Source: a virus
Taxonomy: Duplodnaviria > Caudoviricetes
Length of the DNA: 55,868 nt
IMG/VR virus record: IMGVR_UViG_3300009081_000016
Span: 1 to 55,868 of that record
Direction: 5' to 3' (one strand)
Shown here: positions 169-55,285 of the stretch, piece by piece
Layout: every line of letters starts with the position of its first letter
How positions within the stretch are numbered: position 1 is the first letter of the stretch
Notes under the pieces: model-generated
The model's input: only the letters and a program-made list of their open reading frames with translations
What the model was told of the DNA's origin: nothing
The model's database searches: none
Translations under genes and position numbers: made by a program

Positions 169-230
169 ACAGTAAGTTAGGTGGGAAAAAGGCCCCTCTA
201 AGGCTAACCGTAATAAGAACAGTAAGTTAG
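169..230. repeat. ACAGTAAGTTAG direct repeat pair
   Basis: Identical 12-mers at 169-180 and 219-230; inverted partial copy cctaacttac at 55641-55650. Confidence 0.7.
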
Positions 231-835
231 CCCTGCTGACGTAAACGGGCCTTAACACGAGATTTCAGCCGGAAAAAGGAATGATAGTAGTCGTGACAAT
301 TGCTGCACACAACATATCCTGGACGACAAGAACACTCGATTCCCCATCGATGAAAGAAGGCTTCCCGATTACGTTCATCCAAATCGATGCTATCGGTAAG
401 GGGTGGCCGCACAAAAGCACCCATTTGTGGTTCGGGATGGGAAACTTGGGTTTGCGGTTCTTTCAGGATCTTCCCTCCCAATCCGAATAGCTGCTTAAGG
501 GTTCTCGTAGCTAAAGCTATTGTCACGAAATTATTGACTGTGCTTCCTTGTATAGTAGACTGGAGTGAAATTCCAATCCCCGTCAGTTGTGCCATAAAGT
601 CGGATTCAGCGAGAGGTTCATATCGTCGGGATGTTGCGGCAGGGGAGTAAAACTTAAAATACTCCACGGACGATTCGGAAACAGGATGTCCTCGATGAGA
701 CTCAGAAGCACAGATTCGGAGTTGCGGATATTCCTTATTTCTGTCTCTTCGAAAGTGGGTACAGTAGCATCCCTCACCTGCCCAAACCCAACCCAAAGAT
801 TCAGCCAATTCGATCGCTCGTTTTGTAGTCAACAT
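227..835 (-). CDS. Hypothetical protein, C-terminal Cys/His motif
   Basis: 202-aa ORF coupled to the upstream gene, AAGGA before ATG; CSC...CSNCH near the C-terminus. Confidence 0.6.
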   Translation of the reverse strand: MLTTKRAIELAESLGWVWAGEGCYCTHFRRDRNKEYPQLRICASESHRGHPVSESSVEYFKFYSPAATSRRYEPLAESDFMAQLTGIGISLQSTIQGSTVNNFVTIALATRTLKQLFGLGGKILKEPQTQVSHPEPQMGAFVRPPLTDSIDLDERNREAFFHRWGIECSCRPGYVVCSNCHDYYHSFFRLKSRVKARLRQQG

Positions 836-1475
836 TGGTGATTCCTTTAAGTGAAATAAACATCACCCAAAATCGTGTCTGGAGTATATTCTCCGAACGG
901 ACGGCGTGGTTTGATACGCAAAGAAAACCTCTTCCCCCCGTTACTCCTCCAAAGTGCAAGTAAACCATTTCCGGAGTCCATTGCTTGTAATGAGCGGGAG
1001 ATCCGAATTCATCGCAGTTCACTTCAAAGTACAATCGGCCACCAGGAATGAGAACACGGGATATTTCCGCAATCATCTTCTCGGGATTCGGTGTGTGATC
1101 GATAACGTTGATACATGCTACGTAGCTAAAGCTATTGTCACGAAATTCTTGCATATCCTCCCCGTCTCCCGTAAAGGTGCTGTGGAAATAAGGGAGGAGC
1201 TCGGGAAACAAGCATTTGTAGTCAGCAGCCAGGGGGTCTATGGAGATGATGCGCAAGTTAATTCGCAGTGCATTTTGCTGCTCCCTTGAGAATTCGAAGG
1301 GCGAAACCAAACCACATCCAATCTCCAATCCATGCCCCTGTTCGAATGAAAGAGAAGGAAATCGGGCAAAGAATTCGTGTAAATCTGCTCTTCGCATTTC
1401 CAAAAATCTTTCCTGACCTATCTGAGTATAGAGCTCCCGCCAGAAATTCAATTCAGCACTTTGCTGAGCGGTCAT
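801..1475 (-). CDS. Class I SAM-dependent methyltransferase (Methyltransf_11-like)
   Basis: Motif I LEIGCG, acidic IDP, GEDM..F.DNSFSYV.CINVIDH, EISRVLIPGG. Confidence 0.88.
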   Translation of the reverse strand: MTAQQSAELNFWRELYTQIGQERFLEMRRADLHEFFARFPSLSFEQGHGLEIGCGLVSPFEFSREQQNALRINLRIISIDPLAADYKCLFPELLPYFHSTFTGDGEDMQEFRDNSFSYVACINVIDHTPNPEKMIAEISRVLIPGGRLYFEVNCDEFGSPAHYKQWTPEMVYLHFGGVTGGRGFLCVSNHAVRSENILQTRFWVMFISLKGITNVDYKTSDRIG

Positions 1476-1777
1476 GGTATGTTAACTCCCTGAGGTTTGT
1501 TAGTGTGGATACACGAAATGAATTTGGCCCGTCTTTCTTCTTTTAGGCGAACGACACCCCCTTCTTTGGCATAGGAAGCACGATATATACGTGCAACATC
1601 CCTTGTATCGTATGATACGCACACAACTTCGTCGTATAGAAATTCTCTTCGAAAATAAACAGCGTCCGCCAGAGAACGAAAGAGATGTACGCATCTCTTT
1701 TCGAACGGTCTCACCCAACCATCGGCTTTTATGACCTCAAGATTCTTAGTGGCATGGTATCCGATTCGGGTGGCCAT
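1472..1777 (-). CDS. Small ADP-ribosyltransferase-fold protein (Tpt1/KptA C-terminal-like)
   Basis: GYHATK.LEVIKADG..RP..KRCVHL matches the YHxT...I...G..P..R..VHL pattern; start reassigned to ATG 1777 (TAATG coupling). Confidence 0.5.
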   Translation of the reverse strand: MATRIGYHATKNLEVIKADGWVRPFEKRCVHLFRSLADAVYFRREFLYDEVVCVSYDTRDVARIYRASYAKEGGVVRLKEERRAKFISCIHTNKPQGVNIP

Positions 1778-2370
1778 TATTCTATCCATCCCATTTTGCG
1801 GCGGATTGCCTGAATACAATTGAAACGACCGTTACGGGGTTCTTCGTCTCGTGTCCAATCTACGCAGAGCGATTCGGCAAACTCATAGAGCGCTTCGTTA
1901 GTACGCAGGGTGCTGGCACAAGCAAACAGAAAACCAATTTCGCTTTCGGTTTTGGCCTTGGATCGAAATTCCTCTTCGGGAGTTTTGAAGGTGGGGAATT
2001 CGACCAGCAGGTAATAAGTAACCAAAATGAATGCACCCTCGTGGCTGATAACCGGAACCGTTCTTACGCCTTGCGCATCGGGAGCGATACCGGAAAGAAA
2101 CTCGTTTACTTCGTCGGTGCTGATTAAGCGAAGGGACTCATCCGAAGGATGCTTCCGTCTTGTAAAATTCAAAAGCGCTGTCTTGTAGACCCGCCGAAGA
2201 ACGGTAAGACGGTCGTTGGATGTCTCGGGTGGCGTTCCGTAAAATCGGGAGATGGAACAGTTGGGTCCGTATGTCTGACGTGCTTGCACCAAGGCATGGG
2301 TTGGATCCGTTCCCTCTACCCAGCCAATCTGAAAGCCATCCTGAACAACTTTATAAGTCTGTTTCGACAT
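1777..2370 (-). CDS. Hypothetical protein
   Basis: ORF with GAGGAG before ATG 2370 (MSKQTYK). Confidence 0.7.
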   Translation of the reverse strand: MSKQTYKVVQDGFQIGWVEGTDPTHALVQARQTYGPNCSISRFYGTPPETSNDRLTVLRRVYKTALLNFTRRKHPSDESLRLISTDEVNEFLSGIAPDAQGVRTVPVISHEGAFILVTYYLLVEFPTFKTPEEEFRSKAKTESEIGFLFACASTLRTNEALYEFAESLCVDWTRDEEPRNGRFNCIQAIRRKMGWIE

Positions 2371-2557
2371 CGTTCTCTCCTCGTTTTTCTTTTGAGATGA
2401 CGCGATTGAATTCGGCCCAACGTGGAACGTAGAAATTGGTTCCTCCAAACAGTTCGATGAAGCGTTTTGTATTGTCCTTCCCAAAAGCTTCATAGTATAG
2501 AAATATGAGGGTGTCGGAGAACTCTTCCTTAATTACCTCTTCCCATTTCGTTGGCAA
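2351..2557 (-). CDS. Mor/C-family transcription activator-like small protein
   Basis: EAFGKDNTKRFIELFGGTNFYVP resembles the Mor FGG..IYIP motif; lacks an obvious full C-terminal HTH. Confidence 0.55.
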   Translation of the reverse strand: MPTKWEEVIKEEFSDTLIFLYYEAFGKDNTKRFIELFGGTNFYVPRWAEFNRVISKEKRGENDVETDL

Positions 2558-3227
2558 GTTCGATCCTCAGTTTTACGAGAACGTACTGATAGAGATTTAT
2601 AGCTTCGTCCCGTGTTTTGTTTCTAAAGAACGTCCTACGCAGGATTCTTATGACTTCCTTGCGGGTGCTCCCCACAAGTACAAATGTAGAAACCCAACGA
2701 CACAGAGCAGGATTCATTTTCCAAGAAATCTGAACAACGTTGTTGGCCACAAAGTCTTCGGTGAAATAAGGATTGAAAAACGGATCAGGCGTAATCTCGA
2801 AGGCTTCATTATCCTCTACGAGTCGTTGGTGGTGATATCGAGGAAACCCAATACGAAGTGCTTTCCAATAACCCAACATACGCAACCAAGGAACTATACG
2901 CCCACGGAACGGTTGGAATTTCATCAACTGACCTTCCAAAAAATACAGCAGAAGGTCATGAAGAACATCCTCAAAAGCATCCTCGATACCCATTTCCTGA
3001 ACTGCAAGAGCAACCATGTTCCGGATCGCCCGAGATATCCCTTGGACCAAAACCCCCGTAGATACCCCCGTTCGTTGGTAGCGGATTACCTCCTCGTACA
3101 GCCACTCCTCAAATTCGGCAGGTTCAAGCGTTTCAGGAACTGGGAGGTGTTTCCTCCGCAAACGCAGCATCTTCCTCGTTGGAAACGCTTGTTCGTCTTT
3201 GTTGTTTCCTCGGAGATTACGAGGCAT
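2529..3227 (-). CDS. Sigma70 region 2-like protein (start uncertain)
   Basis: FEDVLHDLLLYFLEG.LMKFQPFRGRIVPWL resembles the sigma region 2 ED..Q...KFDP.RG pattern. Confidence 0.5.
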   Translation of the reverse strand: MPRNLRGNNKDEQAFPTRKMLRLRRKHLPVPETLEPAEFEEWLYEEVIRYQRTGVSTGVLVQGISRAIRNMVALAVQEMGIEDAFEDVLHDLLLYFLEGQLMKFQPFRGRIVPWLRMLGYWKALRIGFPRYHHQRLVEDNEAFEITPDPFFNPYFTEDFVANNVVQISWKMNPALCRWVSTFVLVGSTRKEVIRILRRTFFRNKTRDEAINLYQYVLVKLRIELANEMGRGN

Positions 3228-3280
3228 TCTGTTTTCCTTCTGCAGCGACGACAGAACATGGTTCTGTATTTAGTGTTCAT
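3086..3280 (-). CDS. Small zinc-ribbon protein (DUF5679-like)
   Basis: MFCRRCRRKTE...TKTNKRFQRGRCCVCG two-CxxC pattern; overlaps the 5' end of 2529..3227. Confidence 0.55.
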   Translation of the reverse strand: MNTKYRTMFCRRCRRKTECLVISEETTKTNKRFQRGRCCVCGGNTSQFLKRLNLPNLRSGCTRR

Positions 3281-3282
3281 AC

Positions 3283-3495
3283 TTATTTGGTGGGCTTGAA
3301 GAACTTTTCAATCAACGAAAGGAAAGAAACATTCGATGCCATTCTTTTCATAGCACGAACCTTAACCGCTGCTGCTCGAATGTCCTGCTTCACCAGATAA
3401 AGACGGTGATTCTGGCGTCTCTCGATGTTCTCCTCCCCCCGCTTCTTCGAGAGACGGTTGTGCCGTCGGCGTTGTTCCGGAGACTGTTTCTTCAT
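3283..3495 (-). CDS. Small basic hypothetical protein
   Basis: TTAGGAG before ATG; Arg/Lys-rich 70 aa. Confidence 0.55.
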   Translation of the reverse strand: MKKQSPEQRRRHNRLSKKRGEENIERRQNHRLYLVKQDIRAAAVKVRAMKRMASNVSFLSLIEKFFKPTK

Positions 3496-3817
3496 TCTTC
3501 TCTCCTAAGGATTTGTGGATTCTGCTAACCATACCCAAACACACAGCCCGATATTCGACAGCTAACGTAGCCATCCTTTTAAGGTCTTCGAGGTTATTTC
3601 GGGCCTCCCCTATAACTCCCCCTTCCATCAATTGTGGTGTCCGCTGAGGAGTTGGAGGGTTTAGGGCGATCTCGATTTCTGACAGGAAACGCACGAAGGG
3701 AATCTCAGAAAAGGTTTTTCCTGTTGCGACGAGGAGTCCCTGTATCAAAGTAAACTCCTCGTCGGTTAGACGTCGGCCAATGGGGCGAGGGTGAAAGGGG
3801 GTAATTATCTTAGTCAT
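3362..3817 (-). CDS. Hypothetical protein
   Basis: GGAG before ATG 3817; coupled to the radical SAM gene. Confidence 0.55.
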   Translation of the reverse strand: MTKIITPFHPRPIGRRLTDEEFTLIQGLLVATGKTFSEIPFVRFLSEIEIALNPPTPQRTPQLMEGGVIGEARNNLEDLKRMATLAVEYRAVCLGMVSRIHKSLGEKNEETVSGTTPTAQPSLEEAGGGEHRETPESPSLSGEAGHSSSSG

Positions 3818-4730
3818 GAGTTTCTCCAAACGGATTGCGAACTAAGCCAACATACGCTCCTCCGGAGTAAGAGCACGCGGCGCAGGGGGAAATCTTAGAT
3901 CGTTCTTTCCGGTACAGAGTTTTCAAGATCGATAGATGGGTTTTCGAATACCAAATTTCCCGGAGACTGTACTCTTCCTCTGTTCCCAGAACGTTCTGTT
4001 CGCGCCAGTCCATACAGCAGATAAGGAATTTACCGGAATAGGTAATGGTGCATTCACGAAAAGGCCGAGTACACATCTTAGCCAACGGCGTAGTTGGTTG
4101 GGGATGACCCAATTCCCGGAGAACAATATTAGATACGTTTCCGGCGTAATTGTGAATTGTACGGGAGCGTCCTGCCTTTACCTTCAAAATGTCAGGAACC
4201 AAATTCAGAACCCGAAGCTTTTCGCCTTTTGGGTATCTCCTATAGGCACTGAATTCCCGGAAGTCGGAAATGGTTATGGTATTCAGTGGGTGGGAGAAGG
4301 AAAGAAGTTCCACCATTCGGTTGTAGGTGTTCCCGTAGCAATCGATGTTCAGAATGTTTATCCCCGATTCGATGATCTGAGTTATGAACGCAGGTTGGGA
4401 ACGAATGGTATCCCCGTTGGTAAACAGGGACATCTGAACAAGGGGGAGAACCTCCCGGAAAGTCTTAATCGCATCCAATAAATGAGGATGCATAAGCGGC
4501 TCCCCTCGCATGGCGAACTCTATTCGTCCTCGTTCATTCAGAACCCGAATCTGATGGGCCATTCGATAAGCCAATTCGAGACTCATGTTCCATTGGGGGG
4601 TAGAAGCAGGTTCGTATGCGGAGGGACAAAATCGGCAACCCCGATCACACCCTCGATGTAGTTCAATCTTGAACGTCGTTGGCCGCGCAATGAGGTTTTC
4701 ATACCGACGTGAAATGGATGACGGTGGCAA
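3810..4730 (-). CDS. Radical SAM protein with C-terminal SPASM/twitch domain
   Basis: CDRGCRFC (CxxxCxxC), RGEPLMHP, FTNG; C-terminal CTRPF...ICCMD...PCAAC; TTG start with AGGAG. Confidence 0.9.
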   Translation of the reverse strand: MPPSSISRRYENLIARPTTFKIELHRGCDRGCRFCPSAYEPASTPQWNMSLELAYRMAHQIRVLNERGRIEFAMRGEPLMHPHLLDAIKTFREVLPLVQMSLFTNGDTIRSQPAFITQIIESGINILNIDCYGNTYNRMVELLSFSHPLNTITISDFREFSAYRRYPKGEKLRVLNLVPDILKVKAGRSRTIHNYAGNVSNIVLRELGHPQPTTPLAKMCTRPFRECTITYSGKFLICCMDWREQNVLGTEEEYSLREIWYSKTHLSILKTLYRKERSKISPCAACSYSGGAYVGLVRNPFGETHD

Positions 4731-4736
4731 ATTCTC

Positions 4737-5177
4737 CTACCTTTCGTCGTTGGGAGACTGAACATCCTCACCGCTATATCCGTTGTCTATGGGTTCGTGT
4801 TTTGGATCTTCTGCCCCTTTGGTGGCTTTATCCTCTGCGCATTTTGCGGTGTGGGTGGTGTAGGAACCGTCGTCATATCCTACCATAACAAAAATCTCCA
4901 CATCCATCTTCGTTTTCAGGTAAGATATGCAGACGTCCCATATCCCATCTACCGGAAGTAGGAGAGGTTCATCCATACTGCGTGACACCGTACGTCCCAC
5001 GACCCGGTCGTCCACAACTACTTCGATTAGGACAATCTGCGGGACAGAGGTCGGGTCACGCGGATTCAGGTCTGCCTTCAATGGAACGGTTAGTTTATCA
5101 GAAAAGTTCGACGGATCACTCAGCTGTCGGAACACTTCATTCGGATCCGTTAGGTGTCTCACCATTGTGGTCTTCAT
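4737..5177 (-). CDS. Hypothetical protein
   Basis: ORF fills the gap in the operon; start uncertain. Confidence 0.55.
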   Translation of the reverse strand: MKTTMVRHLTDPNEVFRQLSDPSNFSDKLTVPLKADLNPRDPTSVPQIVLIEVVVDDRVVGRTVSRSMDEPLLLPVDGIWDVCISYLKTKMDVEIFVMVGYDDGSYTTHTAKCAEDKATKGAEDPKHEPIDNGYSGEDVQSPNDER

Positions 5178-5622
5178 TGTTTGGGCCTTTCGTTTCGTTT
5201 GATTCTCGGATTTGTATTCTACCGCTACGAACTCCAAATAGATTGTCGAAGGGGGAAGGAAATGTATTTTCCCAGGGGGAAGGTGGGATCTTCGTTATGT
5301 AGTTGCACCAGAAAACGTTATCCGTGCGTAGGTGGTTAAGAAAGTCCGTTGCAGGTTGCCGATCCAAAATTTCTTTGTAGGTATACCCCTTTAGGAAGGG
5401 GCATTTCGGATCTTTACACTGGAAAAAGTATTGCCCGTTTCGGTAGTTGTGGTTTCGAGTAGGAAAGTAGGTCGGCAATTGCGTTAGGCCCTTCTTTCCG
5501 CATTCCGGACACCGTAACGTCCCTGTGCCAATCAAGGCTCCCTGTAAGCGTTCCCTTTCCTTCTTTGCCAGCATGGGGTGGGTAAAAAAATCAATAAGAG
5601 CAGACAAAATAGAGCGCTTCAT
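5137..5622 (-). CDS. Zinc-ribbon protein
   Basis: CPECG...FFQCKDPKC C4 ribbon. Confidence 0.55.
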   Translation of the reverse strand: MKRSILSALIDFFTHPMLAKKERERLQGALIGTGTLRCPECGKKGLTQLPTYFPTRNHNYRNGQYFFQCKDPKCPFLKGYTYKEILDRQPATDFLNHLRTDNVFWCNYITKIPPSPWENTFPSPFDNLFGVRSGRIQIRESNETKGPNNEDHNGETPNGSE

Positions 5623-5626
5623 AATG

Positions 5627-6565
5627 CTACTCCAACCGCAATTTAGGTTCCTTAGGAACTTCTCCTGCTTTTATTAGGGCAGGATAAAGTGACAACAAGG
5701 GAGTGTATTTGGAGGAATAGGGTGTAGATACCAAGGGAGAATACCGAGCAAACAAATTTACGAAAGCGGCCTCCGAACGTTCCCGATACCCAGTAGAGCC
5801 CAATGAACTAAGCTTTTCTCCGATGACAGGCCACTCTACGTAGCACCCGCTATTACACAACAACTCCAACCCTCGAAGTTGCGCGCGCAAGCACCAGTCT
5901 ACATCCTGTATAGGTTTTCTGTTTCTCAAGAAGGGACCGATCTCCCGAAAAAGACTGTTATTGAGTATGAAGAAATTAGATAAGAGAACTGTCCTTCGAA
6001 TATACCGACGCCAGTCGTCAAGAGGATTGTATCCCTTCTCCATTAACTGAGATACTTCTAACGAAGTCTGAGTTCCGGTTATTTTGCATATTGTTCGAAA
6101 GAACTTGTGTCGCTGTACAAACTTGATACCGGCAACATGATCATTCTTGTCCATCAGGTGCAACATGAATAACAAATGTTCATAAAGCGGAGGGTTCATT
6201 TGAAGAGCGCCATCCCGATCCCGCATTCGAATATCATCGTCTGCGTGAAGCGTATATTTAAATCCAAACTTGTCCGAAATCCAAGCGGCGATGTTTCGGG
6301 CAGCAGATATCCCTATCGCCTTCTCGTAGTCTACATACGCAAAGATATTGAGATTTCTGCTCTCATCAAATAGATCCCCCTGTCCAACAAGACAAACGGG
6401 AAGTGTGGGCATCGTACGACTGCAGTCACGCAAAAAGCCTTCGATCCTGCGTGGCCGATTATAGCAAATAACTCCAATCATGCAGGACTGATCGGTTCTT
6501 AGCCGTTCGTTTATAAGAACTCTGCGAGGAGAGATGCCTTCGGACAAAGAAGTTGGAATTTTCAT
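5627..6565 (-). CDS. GT-A fold glycosyltransferase (GT2; possibly TAGT/JGT-like DNA glycosyltransferase)
   Basis: IGVICYNRP, GISAARN, LHADDDI (DxD), IQDVDWCLR; located among DNA metabolism genes. Confidence 0.75.
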   Translation of the reverse strand: MKIPTSLSEGISPRRVLINERLRTDQSCMIGVICYNRPRRIEGFLRDCSRTMPTLPVCLVGQGDLFDESRNLNIFAYVDYEKAIGISAARNIAAWISDKFGFKYTLHADDDIRMRDRDGALQMNPPLYEHLLFMLHLMDKNDHVAGIKFVQRHKFFRTICKITGTQTSLEVSQLMEKGYNPLDDWRRYIRRTVLLSNFFILNNSLFREIGPFLRNRKPIQDVDWCLRAQLRGLELLCNSGCYVEWPVIGEKLSSLGSTGYRERSEAAFVNLFARYSPLVSTPYSSKYTPLLSLYPALIKAGEVPKEPKLRLE

Positions 6566-9270: not shown

Positions 9271-11694
9271 CTACAGTTTTTCCTGTGTTCCCCAAGAACT
9301 TCCAACGGCAAACTCGACCGGAGTCTTGACCTTTAGCCACGGTAGTTTGGGGTTTTCCATGATCTTTTTAGCGATTCCTAACGCCCGATTTTCTTCCCCT
9401 GGGTAGAGATCCATGAGAATCATATCGTGTATCAGATCGATAACCAATGATTGGAGTCCCTTTTCCCGGAAAGCCTCGGTTATACGCATAGAAGACAGGT
9501 CTGTGAGCATGCTGGCTGCGTTTTGTATTGGAGAATTAACAGCCTCCCGCTCCATAGATGATCTGTCTCGATCGTCTGAATGGGCGTAATTGGGAAACCA
9601 ACGTCGCGAACCGAAGGGGGACTCAACATAACCGTTCTTGATGATCTGTCGAACCACATGATCTCTAAACTCTCCTACTTCGGGATAAAGTTCGTTATAC
9701 CTTCTTAGAAAATCCCTCCAATACTTTATGGTCTTTCCGTGTTGTTCGTGCAATCCAATTTCGCTTTCCCCATACAGCACACCAAAATTAACTCGCTTGG
9801 CGTCACTGCGGATATTCTCCGCTACTGGTTCATCCGCAGGTATGGAGAAAACCTCCCGAGCAACGGCCTCGTGAATGTCACCCCCTGCCGAAAACACGGA
9901 CAACATATGTCGGCAGTTCGCTAATACCGCGAATATCCGTAACTCGATCTGACTATAGTCTCCCGAAGCAACCTTTCCATCCGGCCAACGCGAAATGAAT
10001 AGGGACTTAATATTGTACTCAGACCCCGAAGTGGACTTACGAGGGATGTTCTGTAGATTTGGTCCAGAGGACGACAGTCTTCCGGTCTCGGTATCGATGT
10101 TGAAATTGCTGTGGGCTAATCCATCTGACTTAACCCACTTTCGAACTGCGGTACCTGTATAGGTGGTAAGCAGCTTAACCAAAGTTGAACGTTCAACCAA
10201 ACCACGAGCAACAGGGTGATCGAATCGGGCGATTATGTCCTTCTCTGTTGAGGGCATCCCTGTTTCGGGGGTTACGTACGTTGTGTCCAATCCGCAATGA
10301 ACGTATAGAATCTCTCTTTTAACATTGGGAGATGCCCAAGCGCTCTTCTCCCCCAACTTCGTAGTTACCATTTTAGCTTTGGGGTGTAATCGTAAGAACG
10401 CCTCAACAGCCTTGGTCTTGCTAAGCTTTAAATCTATCGCCTGAATGGAGGCAAACAACTTGTTGGCCAACGCATCAGATGCCTGAAGATCAATCTTTGC
10501 ACCGTTCGATCTAACTGTCCTAAGATGGCCATTCAGAGGATGAAGAATTGTATGGTAGTAATCGGTCAACCCCTCTTTCTCCAAACGTGGAACGAACACC
10601 CGCTTCTTTAGAGTAAAAGTACAGACAGCGTCTGTTCCGTTGTAGACCGCCAGTTGTCTCCGGGAGGCGGAGGTCATAGATACCGATTTCTTCGGCGACT
10701 TAGACCTAACGCTCTCCTTGAAAACGGTCTTGTATCCAGCGTACTCAGGAAGATGAACAGCCACCATATAGGCCAAATCGTGCTTGGCGGATGCCGGATC
10801 GAGTACGTAGCTAAGAAGTTTTGTGTCCCAGACAAAATTGTTTACGGTAATTCCGACAACAACTTGCAGGTATAGAACATCGAAGTTTCCGTTCTGAGCA
10901 ATTATTTCACAGGGAAGGTCAAATACCTTTCGCCACACAGCAATATCGGATTCGGAATAAAAGCTAACCAACCCTATATCGTCTTCAGCACAGACCCCGA
11001 TGCACAGTATCTTGGCGTCCGTTGCCCATGGATCCTTGCCCGTAGTTTCAAGATCGAACGCAAACTCTTTCTTATCCCGTAGGTACCGTAATATTTCTTC
11101 CGGAGAAACGATATGAACTTCGGGAACCTTCATTTCGGCGGTGGTGCTTTCGTCGAACAGAACACTCATATCCTTTATGAACGTGTCCGTAAGTCGAGGA
11201 TCATAACCAATCGCCGCAGGATGGTACATCGGGAAGAAGGTTCTTCCTCCCTGAACGATCTTCCTTCCTCGCGCTTGTTTAATGGACTTGAGTCCAAGCA
11301 ATGCCTTGAGAGCGGTACCACCCAATGGAACTATTACTTTGGGGTCGGTTTCTTTTATCTCCTCCCCCAACCAACGCATACACGCTTTTATGTTCTTCGA
11401 ATCAGGAGTCGCATTTCCGGGAGGTCTGCAACGTACGGTGTTAGTGAAACGAACTGTTAGCTCCAGATCGTTGGCTCGTTCTACAAGACTCCGAAGACGT
11501 TTTCCGGAAGCACCCACAAAGGGTACGCCTTCGTCATCTTCCGTTGCTCCAGGGGCCTCCCCAACAAAGAGAATATCTGCATCGGCGGGACCATCGGGTC
11601 GAATGCAATTGCTACGACAATCGTGACACAGACTGCATCGATCGCATAGAAAAGACGCGGAATCCGACGGGACCCACCTATTTCCTTTTATCAT
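9271..11694 (-). CDS. polA: Family A DNA polymerase with N-terminal family-4 uracil-DNA glycosylase domain
   Basis: UDG: CDRC, FVGEAPG, FVGASG, NTVRCRPP, YHPAA. Exonuclease: FDLETTG, QNGNFD, YNGTD. Polymerase: DYSQIELR, AKRVNFGVLYG, IHD. Confidence 0.96.
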   Translation of the reverse strand: MIKGNRWVPSDSASFLCDRCSLCHDCRSNCIRPDGPADADILFVGEAPGATEDDEGVPFVGASGKRLRSLVERANDLELTVRFTNTVRCRPPGNATPDSKNIKACMRWLGEEIKETDPKVIVPLGGTALKALLGLKSIKQARGRKIVQGGRTFFPMYHPAAIGYDPRLTDTFIKDMSVLFDESTTAEMKVPEVHIVSPEEILRYLRDKKEFAFDLETTGKDPWATDAKILCIGVCAEDDIGLVSFYSESDIAVWRKVFDLPCEIIAQNGNFDVLYLQVVVGITVNNFVWDTKLLSYVLDPASAKHDLAYMVAVHLPEYAGYKTVFKESVRSKSPKKSVSMTSASRRQLAVYNGTDAVCTFTLKKRVFVPRLEKEGLTDYYHTILHPLNGHLRTVRSNGAKIDLQASDALANKLFASIQAIDLKLSKTKAVEAFLRLHPKAKMVTTKLGEKSAWASPNVKREILYVHCGLDTTYVTPETGMPSTEKDIIARFDHPVARGLVERSTLVKLLTTYTGTAVRKWVKSDGLAHSNFNIDTETGRLSSSGPNLQNIPRKSTSGSEYNIKSLFISRWPDGKVASGDYSQIELRIFAVLANCRHMLSVFSAGGDIHEAVAREVFSIPADEPVAENIRSDAKRVNFGVLYGESEIGLHEQHGKTIKYWRDFLRRYNELYPEVGEFRDHVVRQIIKNGYVESPFGSRRWFPNYAHSDDRDRSSMEREAVNSPIQNAASMLTDLSSMRITEAFREKGLQSLVIDLIHDMILMDLYPGEENRALGIAKKIMENPKLPWLKVKTPVEFAVGSSWGTQEKL

Positions 11695-12037
11695 CTATTC
11701 TAATCTCCCAGATTTCAAATGCAAGACTTCCTTGTGAATCGAGTTTGTTGGTCCAAAAGAACAGATTCAGCTTGGTAAGAGGATCTAATGACCCACAAAG
11801 GGCGTAAGCGTTCAAATCATTAGAGACCATAACGTCTCCGCCGTTGGCAACCAACATGAGTTCTGGTTCGGAATCCCCCGAAACAATCTGAAAGAAGTCA
11901 AATACAAGCGTTCGAATTTCCTTTCCGATAGTGAGTTCGATCCGCTTGCCGTTATTCTTCTGATTCCATTCGAGAAGCGGGAAGAAATGCACTCGAGCCG
12001 GATACCCCGAATTGTTTATTTCGGCGGGCAAGTTCAT
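11678..12037 (-). CDS. Hypothetical protein
   Basis: GGAGG before ATG 12037; overlaps both neighbours. Confidence 0.55.
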   Translation of the reverse strand: MNLPAEINNSGYPARVHFFPLLEWNQKNNGKRIELTIGKEIRTLVFDFFQIVSGDSEPELMLVANGGDVMVSNDLNAYALCGSLDPLTKLNLFFWTNKLDSQGSLAFEIWEIRIDDKRK

Positions 12038-13109
12038 GTGCTTTATCCTCCAATCGAATAAATAAACGTGCGTGCGCATTTGCTCCCAACTGTTCTGAGC
12101 CCAACCCATCCGCCGGGATCAGTTCCTCCTGAGGTCGATAGACGTAGCGCCGCTTGATCCGTCTATCCACCTGGCCCTCCAGCCCTGTGCAGTACTTGGA
12201 GAATTCGCATAGAGAATGTTCTATCGCTCGCACGTCCAAAGTAAGACTAAAGGGGGTTCCGGAAAAGAAACGTTGGAGGAGACACTCCTGGTTACGACAC
12301 AGATAGTAGATAAAATCTTCCGGGGTATCCAGAACTTGGGCAGCCTTATCAGTCAGATGCAAATTAATCATGGCGGAACCCAAAGGAGAGGTGGGCGGAG
12401 CAGGGGAAAATATCCTACGTAGGCCTCTCTTGGCCCCTGGCCCAGCGTTACACCAACTATCCTGTAAATAATCGGGAGTGAAACACCCAAACGGTGTGTA
12501 GGTCAAATCCGTAGCGATCTCGTACCCTATAAAACCACCTATCCCGGGCAGTTTACAGAGCGCCTCCCAGTAGTCTCGTAAATTGGGCTTGTCCAAAAGT
12601 ATATCATACAACCAAGGAAGAGAATTCGAAATTGTGCGAAGGCGTTTTACGGTCTCTCGAATCTTATTTGATCCTGGCCCTCCCGCCCGTATAATATAGG
12701 CTGAACCAAAAACAGGATCCGTATCCGCTATTTCTCGGAGACCCTCTTCGAAGCGTTTCCACCCAGCGGCACCCCAATTTTTGTTTACATAAGGATATCC
12801 CCATGGTAAATTCATGAGGGTCGTAGGACGGTTTATTAGGCGATACGCAATTATATTGAATACCAACTGGGCGTCGTAGGTTGGAGAGTACCTAATGATC
12901 TTTTCAAACAGCCAAACAGTTCCGCGATCGAGGTCTCGGAATACGTTGGTGAATCGATAGTCCCGAAGAATTGGATCATCCGTAAGAACGGTTTTGTGTT
13001 CGAGAAAACGCCGAACCCACATCTGATACCGTTCTTGAATCCAATACCAGAACAATCTCATGGCCACTGGGTTGATGGCCACAACGGTTTTCTTATTGGG
13101 AGTCGGCAT
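11952..13109 (-). CDS. aGPT-Pplase1 family (alpha-glutamyl/putrescinyl-thymine pathway, amino acid:DNA transferase-like)
   Basis: ER...RR...TDDPILRDYRFTNVFRDLDRG, HhH LPGIGGFIGYEIATDL, NAGPGAKRGL, IEHSLCEFSKY. Confidence 0.88.
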   Translation of the reverse strand: MPTPNKKTVVAINPVAMRLFWYWIQERYQMWVRRFLEHKTVLTDDPILRDYRFTNVFRDLDRGTVWLFEKIIRYSPTYDAQLVFNIIAYRLINRPTTLMNLPWGYPYVNKNWGAAGWKRFEEGLREIADTDPVFGSAYIIRAGGPGSNKIRETVKRLRTISNSLPWLYDILLDKPNLRDYWEALCKLPGIGGFIGYEIATDLTYTPFGCFTPDYLQDSWCNAGPGAKRGLRRIFSPAPPTSPLGSAMINLHLTDKAAQVLDTPEDFIYYLCRNQECLLQRFFSGTPFSLTLDVRAIEHSLCEFSKYCTGLEGQVDRRIKRRYVYRPQEELIPADGLGSEQLGANAHARLFIRLEDKAHELARRNKQFGVSGSSAFLPASRMESEE

Positions 13110-13596
13110 CTGATCTATCCCCTAATATGGAAATAACAGAAGTCAGTTCCCGGAGCAGATACGGGAGCAGCGCATGCGGATCGATGGGGGTGGGTTCTGG
13201 AACGATCCGCTCGTGGCGGTATTTTCTTACAGCCAGTTGTATGGCTTCGGCCAGACGATCTTCCACCAAACCGTTATCCGACTCGTTACCGGATCCACGT
13301 GAGGATGCTACGGCCCCGATCAAGGCGTATCCTGCGAGGTCAGTCCAAGGGTCTTCCTGGAGTGCAGATGGTGCGTGGGCAATACGCATGATCTTATCGA
13401 ATATTCTACCTAGTATAAAGGAGTCCCGCATTCGTTCGGGAGGAATTCCTTGGGGCCACAACAGAGAAAAGAATCGACCCACCACAAACGCACTACTTCC
13501 ATAGGAAGCATTTTTGTGGCCCAACAATTTTCCCAGAGAATCCCCCCGACTTAGAAATTCTTCGGATAGGGTCTTGAAGTTTTTAGGCTGGGCCAT
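13093..13596 (-). CDS. Nucleotide-modification-associated domain protein (Nmad1/DUF1599-like)
   Basis: KNASYGSS...RIFDKIMRI...EDPWTDLAGYALI; GGAG before ATG 13596. Confidence 0.7.
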   Translation of the reverse strand: MAQPKNFKTLSEEFLSRGDSLGKLLGHKNASYGSSAFVVGRFFSLLWPQGIPPERMRDSFILGRIFDKIMRIAHAPSALQEDPWTDLAGYALIGAVASSRGSGNESDNGLVEDRLAEAIQLAVRKYRHERIVPEPTPIDPHALLPYLLRELTSVISILGDRSDADSQ

Positions 13597-14320
13597 CGAA
13601 TAGACTCCCATTAAATATCTGAAGACGAATTTCCTGATACAAAGTTGTTTTAATTTCCATGGGTATTCTCCCTTTTTCATCATGAATAAAGGGAGCCAAG
13701 ATAAAACCACAAAGGGTTTCAAAGTTCGATCGGCCATTCCCGTCGGGTTTATCATTCCTGCAAAAAATACAGGGATTTAAACTGTCCTCGGGCAAACGCC
13801 GTGAGGCCAATTCTTCACACAAACTATTTGTGGTGATCTTCAAAACGTCAGCCATTTCCGGATCGGGGTTCCCTTTCTTCAGTTCCTGAGTGGCGTAAAG
13901 GTGCAGTTCGAGACGATCGAAGAACTTGACAACTCGAAACTCCAAACTGCTTAGACCCAAATCAGGGTGCGCCTCATTTACCCTATCCATGGAGGTGACT
14001 TCCGCCGAATACAGTTCTTCCCGAAATTTCTCGGAAGCAAAATTTTTGAAGGGATAGGGAATATCCCCTGAAAAGGCTTCAGGCCAATCGTGCTTAAGAA
14101 TACCACGAGATACTCTTACCTGATCCACACAAAAGCAGGGCCAAAACATTTCGTGCAGGAGCAGCGCAAATAACGTGTGCTCCGCTACGCTACGCTTCTC
14201 GTAGGTAAACATTAGACCGCAGTGGTTGATTCGCGATAACCGTTCATAGCTATTATATTTACGATGGCAAGGAATCGCGGCCTCTGTAAGTTGATACAGT
14301 CTATCATTGCTCTGGAACAT
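13583..14320 (-). CDS. HD-domain 5'-deoxynucleotidase (YfbR-like)
   Basis: SVAEHT, LKHDWPEAFSGDIPYPFK, VKFFDRLE; AAGGAG before ATG 14320. Confidence 0.88.
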   Translation of the reverse strand: MFQSNDRLYQLTEAAIPCHRKYNSYERLSRINHCGLMFTYEKRSVAEHTLFALLLHEMFWPCFCVDQVRVSRGILKHDWPEAFSGDIPYPFKNFASEKFREELYSAEVTSMDRVNEAHPDLGLSSLEFRVVKFFDRLELHLYATQELKKGNPDPEMADVLKITTNSLCEELASRRLPEDSLNPCIFCRNDKPDGNGRSNFETLCGFILAPFIHDEKGRIPMEIKTTLYQEIRLQIFNGSLFDGPA

Positions 14321-15425
14321 CGGATACACTCCTTGTGTTAGTCCAATCAACGTAGTGAGTCTGATTAGTCTTTATAACGGGAGATCGAATTCCGGCTAAT
14401 AGTTCTTGGACAGCCGCATTCTCCCCCCCTCTCCGCAATAGTTGGTGTATCTGAAATACCGAAACCCAGTCGTATAATTGCGCTGGAAATATTGACTCAA
14501 TGTCAACGGGGGTAAGTGGGTTGGGGCAATCGGGAACGCCCCCATCTCCCTGGGCCATCGCGCTGCCTACATTGTGCAAGCGCTCTACGTCCGATAAGCA
14601 AAGGGGTGAGGTAGACCCTCCGAATTCTCGAAGCGCAGCCGGGAACCAAAGTCCGCCAACGGGCATCCCGTTTTTCTCAAGAAGGTTTTTGGCCCGTTTC
14701 CAATGCCGTTCATAAAGATGTAAACAGCTAACGAAATGCGTATACTTGTGTGGGCGAACTTTCATTGTTCGAGTGGGGTCTTCCCGCATTATCATATCGG
14801 ATAGAACCTCCATCAACAATGACCACGTAAACAGATTGACGTTGCTGCCCCAAAGAATATCCATGGAACGCTGAAATATTTTCAGCGAGAGGAGAAAGTT
14901 TGGTTGCCCCCCGTTCCATTCGTCTGGTTCAAGAAGGACATGAAGAGCAAGATTGCAGGGAAGATCTTTAGTATGGCCCCGAGCGGTCAGATCGGCGGGA
15001 TGGGCTATCAATATAAATGCCTGGCGAGACAACGGATTATGGGCCAGCAAGTTGGCAACTTCCAGCAGTTGATCCGTCTTCATAATGTCTCCAATTGGGA
15101 ATGCTCTAATACGAGGACCGTATGCTGCCCTCCAAGCCTTACCGTTATCGCTGAAGTCCTCAGCCCGAGGAAGGTATACCTTCAACGAGGATATATAATT
15201 CTCGCCAAAAAGAACCCAACAGGCCTCGAACATGGTGGCCGCGAGACAGTCCCTACGATCCTGCAGATCCAGAACACGGAAGGAAGGTTCAGACAGCTGA
15301 ATAACCACGTCTTCCAATTCGAGAGACGCCTGATCTCGGCGTTCTATCTTCTTTCCTTCCTTGAATAACTTGGTCAGTCCGGCCAATAGAAAATCGCTGT
15401 TACCAACGGCGGTAATTAAATGCAT
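14304..15425 (-). CDS. Thymidylate synthase-family enzyme, probably dUMP hydroxymethylase
   Basis: AYGPR, DQL, SRQA, KDLPCN (catalytic Cys), QRSMDILWGSNVN (Asn at the dUMP-specificity position), LHLYERH; start reassigned to ATG 15425. Confidence 0.85.
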   Translation of the reverse strand: MHLITAVGNSDFLLAGLTKLFKEGKKIERRDQASLELEDVVIQLSEPSFRVLDLQDRRDCLAATMFEACWVLFGENYISSLKVYLPRAEDFSDNGKAWRAAYGPRIRAFPIGDIMKTDQLLEVANLLAHNPLSRQAFILIAHPADLTARGHTKDLPCNLALHVLLEPDEWNGGQPNFLLSLKIFQRSMDILWGSNVNLFTWSLLMEVLSDMIMREDPTRTMKVRPHKYTHFVSCLHLYERHWKRAKNLLEKNGMPVGGLWFPAALREFGGSTSPLCLSDVERLHNVGSAMAQGDGGVPDCPNPLTPVDIESIFPAQLYDWVSVFQIHQLLRRGGENAAVQELLAGIRSPVIKTNQTHYVDWTNTRSVSDVPEQ

Positions 15426-15458
15426 GGAAGAATCCTTTATCGAAATTTTACGGATACT

Positions 15459-15514
15459 AAAAAGACCCCAGGTGGTCGAATCCGGCATTAAGACTCGACC
15501 AACCTGGGGGGGTC
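15459..15514 (-). terminator. Long hairpin followed by U-tract (intrinsic terminator)
   Basis: Minus strand gacccc(ccc)aggttggtcga...tcgaccacctggggtc followed by ttttt. Confidence 0.7.
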
Positions 15515-54400: not shown

Positions 54401-54408
54401 GGTTTTCC

Positions 54409-55143: not shown

Positions 55144-55285
55144 AGTCGCTTTTTTTCCCGAGTCTTCCTGAACGTTCACACCAAACGAGAATGATGGCGC
55201 ATTGCCAGGCAGAGGAGCAGAATGAACATTGCTGGTAGAGCACTTAGAGCCTGATAGACGAGGTGAGCCATCCCCATACGTGCTG

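What the first reader, a model, noticed from the sequence alone, without database searches (positions are those of the whole stretch)
11952..15425. Thymine hypermodification cassette lacking a recognisable 5hmU DNA kinase
Seen: contiguous TS-family enzyme (Asn specificity residue implies dUMP), HD nucleotidase, Nmad1-like and aGPT-Pplase1 genes directly before the polymerase. Established: in phiW-14/SP10/ViI/M6 pathways the transferase needs 5hmU pre-activated by a P-loop 5-HMUDK kinase. I found no P-loop kinase among the ORFs, nor a dCMP deaminase or dNMP kinase. Inference: a non-homologous activator (e.g. 11678..12037), activation at nucleotide level, or different chemistry.
Basis: partly seen in the sequence, partly recalled or inferred. 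Interest (0 to 1): 0.75.

Follow-up and report, generated by a model that had tools for sequence, protein, structure and literature searches.

The report
Kinase-less thymine hypermodification genes in a phage
A complete phage genome carries genes for replacing thymine with a modified base but lacks the kinase and transferase of the known pathway, and many other phages share this kinase-free gene set, which pairs the same helical enzyme with sugar-adding enzymes.

Summary
The window is a complete 55,868-bp phage genome with a 123-bp terminal repeat. On the minus strand a coupled operon encodes a TS-family enzyme with the dUMP-hydroxymethylase signature, an HD nucleotidase, a helical protein, a PF18723 protein (old name aGPT-Pplase1, current Pfam name HMUDK_hel), a small ORF and a UDG-exo-PolA. 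No 5-hmdU DNA kinase (PF18748) turns up by ORF scans, six-frame search or Walker-A scan.

The transferase shown to need that kinase (PF18724, AADT) is also absent. PF18723 is not a kinase domain. It is a distant AADT homologue that keeps the Glu/Cys catalytic motif. In SP10 it is fused to the kinase.

Kinase-less PF18723 phages are common. In 39 large IMG/VR records, 8 have the kinase and 21 have a TAGT glycosyltransferase, never both. PhiJL001 and LuckyBarnes are kinase-less too. A radical-SAM/SPASM gene of the window (3810-4730) is the homologue of one that lies beside PF18723 in 21 related loci. The window also has a weak TAGT-like GT-A enzyme.

Best reading: a kinase-independent 5hmU-derived pathway, probably ending in a glycosylated base. 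The activation step is unresolved. A 2026 paper noted kinase-less Pplase1 in other phages.

The parts
14304..15488 (-). TS-family enzyme, read as a dUMP hydroxymethylase (394 aa; alternative start at 15425)
   Evidence: PF00303 1.3e-17 and phrog_3676 9.5e-44. The best PDB sequence hit is the CMP 5-hydroxymethylase MilA 5b6d at 7.9e-12, against 4.1e-7 for the best true TS. All NCBIfam TS equivalogs fall far below cut-off (44.7 vs 327 bits). The Cys lies in DLPCN and Asn occupies the specificity position. The PCN and IWG signature is shared with the SN1 (M6-like) enzyme.
13583..14350 (-). HD-domain phosphohydrolase, YfbR-like 5'-deoxynucleotidase family (likely start 14320)
   Evidence: PF12917 1.6e-9 at 38.1 bits, over the 25.9 cut-off, and PF13023 8.6e-6. 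The same two families hit the HD proteins of SN1 and PhiJL001 next to their TS genes. A ribosome site precedes ATG 14320.
13093..13596 (-). 167-aa all-helical protein of a widespread uncharacterised phage domain family, distantly DUF6378-like (longest ORF runs to 13755)
   Evidence: 1737 relatives at E<=0.001 in the representatives search; the conserved domain is residues 11-105. Alignment A2 gives 12 invariant residues. 10 of 49 family members hit DUF6378 (best 5.5e-5) and 1 of 49 hits DUF1599 at 0.21. The AF2 model has pLDDT 85.9 with six helices and no strand. No clear PDB match; best Z 7.2.
11952..13109 (-). PF18723 protein (aGPT-Pplase clade 1, current Pfam name HMUDK_hel), 385 aa, with a unique C-terminal tail of about 65 aa
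   Evidence: PF18723 1e-46, 160 bits. All 23 invariant residues of alignment A1 are kept, including E297 H298 C301 E302 K305. The model's top structural match is the AADT PaMx11 gp46, 8z2n, Z 10.1, rmsd 4.2, 233 residues. hhalign against an AADT profile gives probability 79% and E 1.6e-5, with EHSLC aligned to ETvLC.
11678..12109 (-). Small ORF (59-143 aa depending on start), unknown function, overlapping the tail of the PF18723 gene
   Evidence: No Pfam, PHROG or NCBIfam family and no relative in 83 loci. The codon-usage score in its frame is 0.16 downstream of 11951, similar to real genes.
9271..11694 (-). DNA polymerase with N-terminal uracil-DNA glycosylase and 3'-5' exonuclease domains (807 aa)
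   Evidence: PF03167 UDG 1.9e-29 (residues 34-168), PF01612 6.1e-13, PF00476 2e-76. UDG-PolA fusions are reported in phages with T-modified genomes (PMC13697223, abstract and passages).
5627..6565 (-). GT-A fold glycosyltransferase, weakly TAGT-like (312 aa)
   Evidence: PF20691 TAGT 2e-5 at 25.1 bits, under the 27.5 cut-off; 23 bits in the six-frame search. ESM Atlas feature scores 0.97-0.98 and TM 0.63-0.71 to GT2 clusters. A DDD motif lies at residues 109-111. My own TAGT HMM built from related loci did not hit it at 1e-4.
3810..4730 (-). Radical SAM / SPASM enzyme, homologue of the one encoded beside PF18723 in related phage contigs
   Evidence: PF04055 1.4e-9 and PF13186 1.9e-8. CX3CX2C at residue 28. 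tblastn hits in 16 loci, best 5.6e-35 at 28% identity. By HMM it occurs in 21 other loci, always next to PF18723.
801..1475 (-). SAM-dependent methyltransferase; possible tailoring enzyme, membership in the pathway unproven
   Evidence: PF08241 1.6e-12 and phrog_22502 1.7e-9. It lies in the same island as the GT and radical SAM genes.
51710..53915 (-). Second radical SAM/SPASM gene plus two GT2 glycosyltransferases; joins the left-end island across the terminal repeat; link to DNA modification unproven
   Evidence: PF04055/PF13186 at 51710-52495, PF00535 9.9e-14 at 52492-53232 and 2.8e-5 at 53223-53915.

Best explanation
The phage builds a 5-hydroxymethyluracil-derived thymine replacement by a route that uses neither the 5-hmdU DNA kinase nor the clade-2 amino-acid:DNA transferase.

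Before replication (inferred from family assignments): the TS-family enzyme converts dUMP to 5hm-dUMP and host kinases raise it to the triphosphate. The HD nucleotidase, and perhaps the helical 167-aa protein, drain competing dTMP/dTTP/dUTP. The UDG-exo-PolA incorporates 5hmdU and removes uracil.

After replication (inferred): the PF18723 enzyme flips the base out, as its homologue gp46 does. Cys301 attacks C6, with Glu297/His298 in the metal-binding position, which makes the C5 methylene reactive. The TAGT-like GT-A glycosyltransferase and the radical SAM/SPASM enzyme, and possibly the further GT2, methyltransferase and second radical SAM genes, finish a glycosylated base.

Shown: gene content, absence of the kinase and AADT, homology and motif conservation, and the recurrent PF18723-TAGT-radical SAM-TS gene set. 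Not shown: any chemistry, the order of steps, and how the hydroxymethyl group is made to leave.
For: - Complete genome without PF18748 or PF18724.
- Hydroxymethylase-type TS with Asn. Its nearest cultured relatives are the TS homologues of ViI-like phages, about 30% identical.
- The PF18723 protein keeps all 23 invariant residues.
- Its model's best structural match is the AADT gp46, Z 10.1.
- The profile-profile alignment places its EHSLC on the Glu243/Thr244/Cys247 positions of gp46 (residue roles from PMC11472151, passages).
- I chose the 39 IMG/VR records of at least 30 kb from the 80 best loci. Of these, the kinase is in 8, AADT in 9 and TAGT in 21, with no record holding TAGT together with kinase or AADT. 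7 of the 10 records at least 90% complete lack the kinase.
- In 84 loci, 14 have the kinase and 51 have TAGT, with overlap 0.
- PhiJL001 and LuckyBarnes are complete cultured-phage genomes with PF18723 + TAGT + TS and no kinase.
- Homologues of the window's radical SAM lie directly beside PF18723 in 21 loci, 16 of them as PF18723-TAGT-rSAM-TS.
- TS genes beside PF18723 carry Asn in 68 of 70 cases, so these clusters work on uracil, not cytosine.
Against: - The window's glycosyltransferase scores below the TAGT gathering cut-off, and my locus-derived TAGT HMM missed it.
- The GT and radical SAM genes lie 5.4-7.2 kb from the PF18723 gene, behind replication genes, not in one operon as in the relatives.
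- In the Pplase1 tree the window sits on a long branch near both radical-SAM-adjacent and kinase-bearing members.
- In SP10 and YungSlug, PF18723 goes with the kinase and without AADT. That suggests clade 1 normally acts on a phosphorylated base.
- The several glycosyltransferases could serve virion or host-surface glycosylation instead.
- No modified nucleoside has been measured for this phage or, in the papers I could search, for PhiJL001 or LuckyBarnes.
Confidence: 0.55

Rival explanations
1. A non-homologous activator is hidden among the unassigned ORFs. It would phosphorylate or otherwise activate 5hmU in DNA for the PF18723 enzyme.
For: PF18723 is fused to the kinase in SP10 gp186 and adjacent to it in YungSlug and SN1, so the enzyme may need an activated substrate. 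Many window ORFs have no family. The ORF 11678-12109 looks coding.
Against: No Walker A motif in any unassigned ORF of suitable size. No kinase, ATP-grasp or nucleotidyltransferase family among 65 ORFs. The protein in the kinase's syntenic position is modelled as all-helical. None of the unassigned window ORFs recurs in the 83 related loci, whereas kinase-less PF18723 genomes are common. A shared hidden activator should recur.
Confidence: 0.1
2. The glycosyltransferase is itself the activator. TAGT-type enzymes put a sugar, or a sugar phosphate, on the 5hmU hydroxyl, and PF18723 then works on that adduct. On this view TAGT replaces the kinase rather than the final transferase.
For: The kinase and TAGT are mutually exclusive among PF18723 genomes: 0 of 39 records and 0 of 84 loci. 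The chance of zero overlap if independent is 7e-4 and 3e-7, ignoring relatedness. The two classes interleave on the Pplase1 tree, so partners were swapped repeatedly.
Against: The same exclusivity follows if TAGT replaces AADT as an alternative end-product enzyme. AADT and TAGT are also exclusive. Five loci and the window pair PF18723 with radical SAM but have no clear TAGT. From general chemistry, a glycoside is a poor leaving group. Contigs are related, so the probabilities are overstated.
Confidence: 0.15
3. The side chain is built at the nucleotide level and incorporated as a modified dNTP, or a host kinase does the activation, so no phage DNA kinase is needed.
For: SP-15 makes dihydroxypentyl-dUTP before incorporation. 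I saw only the title of Walker & Mandel 1978 in the reference list of PMC5977210. The phage has its own polymerase.
Against: PF18723 has the helix-hairpin-helix glycosylase-like fold and is a homologue of a DNA base-flipping enzyme. No nucleotide-sugar or nucleotide-tailoring enzymes are recognisable beside the TS gene.
Confidence: 0.1
4. The DNA carries only plain 5hmU, or ordinary T. PF18723 would have another role, such as a glycosylase-like repair or anti-defence function, and the glycosyltransferases would serve the virion or the host surface.
For: Clade 1 was dispensable in the M6 reconstitution (PMC8989533). A GT9 gene sits among capsid genes. Nothing is measured.
Against: The Cys/Glu motif of a C5-modifying enzyme is invariant in 42 of 42 aligned family members, including this one. 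PF18723 is tightly linked to TS, TAGT and radical SAM genes in dozens of loci. For the ordinary-T version: the TS is far from true TS equivalogs and closest to hydroxymethylases.
Confidence: 0.1

Closest known systems
M6 / PaMx11 / ViI / PhiW-14 thymidine hypermodification pathway (dUMP hydroxymethylase, 5-HMUDK, AADT, tailoring enzymes)
   Same: TS-family hydroxymethylase next to an HD phosphohydrolase and a PF18723 gene just upstream of the polymerase. SN1, an M6 relative, has the same neighbours. A radical SAM enzyme is present, as in M6.
   Different: No 5-HMUDK and no AADT anywhere in a complete genome. No PLP enzyme, Nmad5 or dCMP deaminase. Glycosyltransferases are present instead.
SP10 gp186 (kinase fused to PF18723) and Bacillus phage YungSlug (kinase + PF18723, no AADT)
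   Same: The same PF18723 domain, with TS nearby.
   Different: In those phages the domain is fused to or beside PF18748, and it is the only Pplase-type enzyme in the genome. The window has the domain alone, with a unique C-terminal tail.
PhiJL001 and Brevibacterium phage LuckyBarnes; IMG/VR contigs with PF18723-TAGT-(radical SAM)-TS operons
   Same: PF18723 + TS with Asn + GT-A glycosyltransferase, without kinase or AADT. The window's radical SAM is a homologue of the operon's.
   Different: In those genomes the genes are adjacent and TAGT scores well above its cut-off. In the window the GT is only weakly TAGT-like and the genes are spread over about 10 kb. Identity is low (PF18723 at most 36%).
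PaMx11 gp46 (PUGT, PDB 8Z2M/8Z2N), the solved clade-2 AADT
   Same: Best structural match of the PF18723 model (Z 10.1). The E-x-x-x-C motif and the helix-hairpin-helix segment align.
   Different: About 9% identity. No HMM-to-sequence match to any PDB chain. The metal ligand Thr244 is His298 here. Substrate and leaving group are unknown.
SP15-like phages (YerA41, SP-15, RP13, EP_H11, IME92) with a glycosylated linker on thymine and UDG-fused PolA
   Same: UDG-PolA fusion. Pplase1 was reported without a detectable kinase in RP13, EP_H11 and IME92 (PMC13697223, passages). Several glycosyltransferases are present.
   Different: Those are large phages whose polymerases carry three big insertions, and the paper reports that they encode dCTP deaminase. 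The window is a 56-kb genome with a compact 807-aa polymerase and no deaminase. I did not compare the sequences directly.

Membership tests
5-HMUDK/AADT thymidine hypermodification pathway | P-loop 5-hmdU DNA kinase (PF18748) | tested here: not met
   0 matches at E<=10 in the six-frame search. No kinase family in 65 ORFs. SN1 kinase protein gave no match. Positive control SN1 scored 65.2 bits.
5-HMUDK/AADT thymidine hypermodification pathway | Clade-2 amino-acid:DNA transferase (PF18724) | tested here: not met
   0 matches at E<=10. Positive control SN1 scored 160 bits.
5-HMUDK/AADT thymidine hypermodification pathway | dUMP hydroxymethylase supplying 5hmdU | tested here: met
   Sequence-level evidence only: TS fold, Cys, Asn, PCN/IWG signature, and closest PDB hit a hydroxymethylase. 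Activity not measured.
PF18723 (aGPT-Pplase clade 1 / HMUDK_hel) | HMM match over the gathering cut-off across the whole domain | tested here: met
   160 bits against a cut-off of 25; profile positions 4-272 of 281.
PF18723 (aGPT-Pplase clade 1 / HMUDK_hel) | Invariant residues, including the IEHSLCE motif | tested here: met
   All 23 invariant columns of the 42-sequence alignment are kept.
PF18723 (aGPT-Pplase clade 1 / HMUDK_hel) | Fusion or adjacency to the kinase domain, which gave the family its current name | tested here: not met
   Stand-alone here. Fused in SP10 gp186. Most relatives are also stand-alone.
Kinase-less PF18723-TAGT-radical SAM-TS gene set (described here from IMG/VR loci) | PF18723 with TS (Asn), and no kinase or AADT | tested here: met
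Kinase-less PF18723-TAGT-radical SAM-TS gene set (described here from IMG/VR loci) | TAGT-family glycosyltransferase (PF20691) over the cut-off | tested here: inconclusive
   25.1 and 23 bits against a cut-off of 27.5. The GT-A fold is supported. My own TAGT HMM gave no hit.
Kinase-less PF18723-TAGT-radical SAM-TS gene set (described here from IMG/VR loci) | Homologue of the operon's radical SAM/SPASM enzyme | tested here: met
   tblastn 5.6e-35 at 28% over 295 aa; 16 loci by tblastn and 21 by HMM.
Kinase-less PF18723-TAGT-radical SAM-TS gene set (described here from IMG/VR loci) | Genes adjacent in one operon | tested here: not met
   The GT and radical SAM genes lie 5.4-7.2 kb downstream of PF18723, beyond the PolA, SSB, FEN, Gam-like and RusA-like genes.
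   No match for the protein at E<=10. 1 of 49 relatives matches at E 0.21, while 10 of 49 match DUF6378. The ESM Atlas gave DUF6378 and DUF1599 only as sub-0.9 leads.
UDG-fused A-family polymerases of T-modified phages | N-terminal UDG domain on an exo+pol PolA | tested here: met
   PF03167 1.9e-29, PF01612 and PF00476.
UDG-fused A-family polymerases of T-modified phages | The three large insertions of the SP15-like subgroup | not tested
   At 807 aa it looks too short for them, but no alignment to YerA41 or phiLo polymerases was made.

The most novel reading that the evidence does not exclude
PF18723 enzymes define a second, kinase-independent route of thymidine hypermodification. The Cys/Glu active site would make unphosphorylated 5hmU reactive, either directly or after TAGT glycosylation. 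A radical SAM/SPASM partner and glycosyltransferases would then build a linker-plus-glycan base. The kinase+AADT module and the TAGT (+/- radical SAM) module would be interchangeable partners of the same core enzyme, and this phage would be a scattered, multi-glycosyltransferase version of the second route.
Probability: 0.3. Interest if true: 0.8.

Novelty: new variant of a known kind. Interest (0 to 1): 0.6.

Why it matters
All reconstituted thymidine hypermodification pathways start with phosphorylation of 5hmU in DNA. The clade-1 Pplase has no assigned activity even though it is the most widely shared gene of these clusters.

This genome, together with the survey made here, shows that clade 1 occurs more often without the kinase than with it in the sampled relatives, and that it then travels with TAGT glycosyltransferases and a radical SAM/SPASM enzyme.

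That gives a concrete, testable handle on two open points: what clade 1 does, and how phages such as RP13, PhiJL001 and LuckyBarnes modify thymine without a kinase. Two of these phages are cultured, so the prediction can be checked by nucleoside LC-MS without needing this uncultured virus.

New DNA-modifying transferases and glycosylated bases also matter for restriction evasion and as labelling tools.

Tried and rejected
- Megablast of the cassette against 50,697 phage records: no match.
- The search for related loci with the single PF18723 protein: none. It worked with the alignment.
- Word-based homologue searches of the 167-aa protein and of the GT returned only the proteins themselves.
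- PDB sequence search with the PF18723 profile: 0 hits at E<=10. With the A2 profile only chance-level hits.
- Foldseek on both models gave nothing at E<=0.001. VIA-wide on the 167-aa model gave only helical-hairpin matches, Z at most 7.2, so no fold assignment is made.
- 0 of 31 close relatives of the 167-aa protein hit any relevant Pfam family at 1e-3.
- The promoter/terminator scan was uninformative: 8 promoter-like sites against 14.9 expected.
- I considered whether the 'HMUDK_hel' hit refutes the finding and rejected that. GenBank names the same orthologues either 'aGPT-Pplase1' or '5-hmdU DNA kinase helical domain', the match covers a helical domain without a P-loop, and the separate kinase family PF18748 is absent.
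- I considered whether the TAGT-class clusters act on 5hmC and rejected that, because 68 of 70 neighbouring TS genes carry Asn.
- The Pplase1 tree did not separate kinase and TAGT classes, so it cannot say which state is ancestral. It used a midpoint root and FastTree only.
- Iyer et al. 2013 (NAR 41:7635), which defined these families, is not held. It may already describe TAGT-Pplase linkage.
- No supplements were read.
- Literature searches for the PF18723-TAGT-radical SAM set found no description. They cover only open-access PMC and bioRxiv.

Full report
**What is there**

The window is a whole virus record. It is 55,868 bp, IMG/VR classes it as having direct terminal repeats, and CheckV rates it 100% complete. 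The exact terminal repeat is 123 bp. Absence of a gene from the window is therefore absence from the genome as assembled. Nearly all genes lie on the minus strand.

- a TS-family protein (15488 or 15425 to 14304; PF00303 1.3e-17);
- an HD/YfbR-like phosphohydrolase (14350 or 14320 to 13583; 38.1 bits against a cut-off of 25.9);
- an ORF without a family (13755 or 13596 to 13093);
- a 385-aa protein matching PF18723 at 1e-46 (13109-11952);
- a small ORF (12109-11678);
- an 807-aa polymerase with UDG, 3'-5' exonuclease and PolA domains (11694-9271).

GGAG-type sites precede the ATGs at 14320, 13596, 13109 and 11694, and neighbouring genes overlap by 14-17 nt. This looks like one translationally coupled operon.

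**The name trap**

Pfam now calls PF18723 'HMUDK_hel: 5-hmdU DNA kinase, helical domain'. This is the family formerly called aGPT-Pplase clade 1. Orthologues in M6-like phages carry either name in GenBank, and the SN1 gene annotated 'aGPT-Pplase1' hits PF18723 at 1e-55.

The kinase proper is a separate family, PF18748. The clade-2 enzyme, now ADDT/AADT, is PF18724.

The Pfam name probably comes from fusions. SP10 gp186 (637 aa) has PF18748 at residues 35-193 and PF18723 at 313-598. That agrees with the 'domain fusion' footnote in Table 3 of PMC5889632 (passages).

**Is the kinase really missing?**

Yes, as far as sequence methods reach.
- Pfam hmmscan over 65 ORFs of at least 45 aa found no kinase family. 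A repeat of 15 unassigned ORFs at E<=10 added nothing.
- NCBIfam and PHROGs added nothing kinase-like.
- A six-frame search of the genome with PF18748 gave 0 matches at E<=10.
- The SN1 kinase protein gave 0 matches.
- A Walker-A regex found no motif in an unassigned ORF of kinase size.
- The same PF18748 search finds the SN1 kinase at 65.2 bits.

dCMP deaminase (PF00383), thymidylate kinase (PF02223) and Nmad5 (PF18757) are also absent at E<=1.

One caveat applies. In relatives, 5 of 8 PF18748 matches were below the gathering score. Divergent kinases therefore exist, and a very divergent one could escape.

**The premise needs correcting**

The enzyme shown to need 5-PmdU is the clade-2 AADT: M6 gp51, ViI gp247 and PaMx11 gp46. 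In M6 lysate reconstitution, gp54 plus gp51 sufficed, and leaving out gp55 (which, by synteny with SN1, is the clade-1 gene) did not matter (PMC8989533, passages). PF18724 is absent from the window at E<=10. The enzyme that demonstrably needs the kinase is therefore not there either.

**What the clade-1 protein looks like**

- It keeps all 23 residues that are invariant in an alignment with 41 relatives, including E297, H298, C301, E302 and K305 in the motif IEHSLCE.
- Its nearest relatives are at most 36% identical, and it has a unique tail of about 65 residues.
- An AlphaFold model (mean pLDDT 74.0, pTM 0.74) has PaMx11 gp46 as its best structural match by VIA-align: 8z2n, Z 10.1, rmsd 4.2 Å, 233 residues. 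Next come the DUF2419 queuine salvage enzyme (Z 9.4) and helix-hairpin-helix glycosylases (Z 8.8 or lower).
- Foldseek alone was weak: E 0.15, probability 0.97 for 8z2m. For helical proteins a Z of 10 is not decisive.
- A profile-profile comparison of 85 clade-1 rows with 14 AADT rows gave probability 79%, E 1.6e-5 and 202 aligned columns. It places EHSLC on the ETvLC of AADT, and the GIGGF..YE segment on AADT's GFGPW..FK.
- In gp46, Glu243 and Thr244 hold the metal and Cys247 attacks C6 (PMC11472151, passages).
- The only sub-threshold PF18724 hit in PhiJL001 falls inside its clade-1 gene gp19.

I conclude that clade 1 is a true, distant homologue of AADT with an intact nucleophile site. It probably works like AADT, by base flipping, thiolate addition at C6 and chemistry at the C5 methylene.

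**Does clade 1 work with the kinase elsewhere?**

Yes. SP10, the classic alpha-glutamylthymine phage, has no PF18724 at E<=1, and its only Pplase-type domain is clade 1, fused to the kinase. Bacillus phage YungSlug likewise has PF18748, PF18723 and TS in one cluster and no PF18724. By inference, clade 1 is the transferase there and uses the phosphorylated base.

**How unusual is the kinase-less state?**

It is not unusual. From 577 confirmed IMG/VR relatives the tool kept the best 80 loci.

Whole-record searches gave:

| Family | Records of 39 | Over cut-off |
|---|---|---|
| PF18748 (kinase) | 8 | 3 |
| PF18724 (AADT) | 9 | 9 |
| PF20691 (TAGT) | 21 | 21 |
| None of the three | 9 | - |

- All 8 kinase-bearing records also hold AADT, which occurs in one further record; none of these 9 holds TAGT.
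- Among the 10 records at least 90% complete, 3 have the kinase, 6 have TAGT and 1 has none of the three families.

With HMMs that I built from the loci, over 83 loci plus the window, 14 have the kinase, 13 have AADT and 51 have TAGT. Kinase and TAGT overlap in 0, and kinase and AADT overlap in 13. If the genes were independent, zero overlap would have probability 7e-4 (39 records) and 3e-7 (84 loci). These numbers ignore relatedness and are overstated. However, the two classes interleave on a Pplase1 tree.

Two cultured, completely sequenced phages are kinase-less with PF18723 + TAGT + TS. These are PhiJL001 (TAGT 2.7e-53) and LuckyBarnes (two TAGT genes).

In print, PMC13697223 (passages) states that RP13, EP_H11 and IME92 carry aGPT-Pplase1 while the kinase 'could not be detected'.

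**The wider gene set in the window**

The radical SAM/SPASM gene at 3810-4730 has tblastn hits in 16 related loci, the best at 5.6e-35 and 28% identity. By HMM it has homologues in 21 loci, always directly beside the clade-1 gene. Sixteen of these have the order PF18723-TAGT-radical SAM-TS (often with HD further on), and five have radical SAM-PF18723 without TAGT. None occurs together with the kinase. Among cultured phages only six Campylobacter phages have a relative, at about 24% identity, annotated BtrN.

The 312-aa protein at 5627-6565 hits TAGT just under the cut-off: 25.1 bits and 2e-5 by hmmscan, and 23 bits in the six-frame search. It is GT-A/GT2-like by the ESM Atlas, with feature scores 0.97-0.98 and TM 0.63-0.71, and it has a DDD motif.

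Because of the terminal repeat, genes 6565..227 and 55506..51710 are neighbours. Together they form an island holding this GT, the radical SAM, a SAM methyltransferase (801-1475), two GT2 genes (52492-53915) and a second, only distantly similar radical SAM/SPASM (51710-52495). Whether the last four act on DNA is unknown.

**The TS-family enzyme**

- Its best PDB sequence hits are the CMP 5-hydroxymethylase MilA (7.9e-12), ahead of true TS (4.1e-7).
- Every NCBIfam TS equivalog is far below its cut-off (44.7 against 327 bits).
- The catalytic Cys lies in DLPCN. In QRSMDILWGSNVN the last Asn aligns with the TS base-specificity position, where MilA has Asp. The numbering Asn177 for E. coli TS is recalled, not from a call.
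- Among 70 TS genes next to clade-1 genes, 68 carry Asn, 1 carries Asp and 1 is cut off. All classes share the PCN and IWG signature with the SN1 enzyme.
- The nearest cultured relatives are TS homologues of ViI-like phages, about 30% identical.

This supports dUMP hydroxymethylase. It also shows that the TAGT-class clusters work on uracil rather than cytosine.

**The other operon members**

Taken from Met54, the 167-aa protein belongs to a large phage domain family. There are 1737 representatives at E<=0.001, and the conserved core is residues 11-105, with 12 invariant residues.

It is not Nmad1 by HMM. 10 of 49 members weakly hit DUF6378, and 1 of 49 hits DUF1599 at 0.21. The ESM Atlas gave the same two families only as leads below 0.9.

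Its model (pLDDT 85.9) is six helices with no strand and has no clear PDB match. It is therefore not a P-loop or other alpha/beta kinase fold. A role in nucleotide-pool control is only a guess. The analogy is the helical dTTPase/dUTPase of phage SH-Ab 15599 (PMC13458397, passages).

The small ORF 11678-12109 scores as coding downstream of 11951 (0.16, like real genes). It has no family and no relatives.

**Verdict**

The most likely reading (about 0.55) is a kinase-independent, 5hmU-derived pathway of the PF18723/TAGT/radical SAM type, probably ending in a glycosylated base. The window is a divergent, spatially scattered member of that type.

The activation step is unresolved. The options are direct Cys-driven loss of the hydroxyl, prior glycosylation, a hidden activator, or chemistry at the nucleotide level. 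The last has a precedent: SP-15 makes its modified base as a triphosphate (title seen in the reference list of PMC5977210).

The kinase-less state has been noted in print for other phages. In searches I found no description of the PF18723-TAGT-radical SAM-TS set or of its exclusivity with the kinase. Iyer et al. 2013 was not available and may bear on this.

Noticed in passing
window 44273-46726 (-): An 817-aa protein in the structural module has a Peptidase C10 (streptopain-type cysteine protease) domain at 7.4e-42 and a weak CBM96 hit. That is unusual for a virion or tail-region gene.
   Followed up: no
window 40912-42081 (-): A GT9 (heptosyltransferase-like) glycosyltransferase (PF01075 7.6e-11; TIGR02193 1e-8) sits between a DnaT_2-like head-tail gene and the P22-type coat protein gene (42088-43002). 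It might glycosylate the virion.
   Followed up: no
window 51710-53915 (-) and 227-6565 (-): Across the 123-bp terminal repeat these two ends form one island: two radical SAM/SPASM genes (only about 25% alike), three GT-A/GT2 glycosyltransferases and a SAM methyltransferase.
   Followed up: partly
IMG/VR loci L006-L085; records G001-G039: Among genomes with a PF18723 gene, the kinase+AADT pair and TAGT never co-occur (0 of 39 records, 0 of 84 loci). A radical SAM/SPASM gene sits next to PF18723 in 21 loci, never with the kinase.
   Followed up: yes
L086 (Bacillus phage YungSlug) 3402-3932: A Tad2-like (Thoeris anti-defence 2) domain protein (PF11195 1.1e-13) is encoded directly upstream of the PF18723 gene, two genes downstream of the kinase.
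   Followed up: no
records G017, G018, G020 (loci L042, L044, L046): The weak PF18748 matches in these three related records each contain one TGA and one TAG inside the match. Possible explanations are a broken kinase gene, two genes or an alternative code.
   Followed up: no
window 16721-17284 (-): A 187-aa ORF upstream of the cassette has a weak ECF sigma-70 hit (TIGR02937 1.6e-4, below cut-off). It may be a phage sigma factor.
   Followed up: no
window 11952-12109: The PF18723 gene's unique C-terminal tail overlaps the next ORF by up to 158 nt, and both frames score as coding there (0.07 vs 0.08). Relatives of the PF18723 protein end near residue 320.
   Followed up: partly
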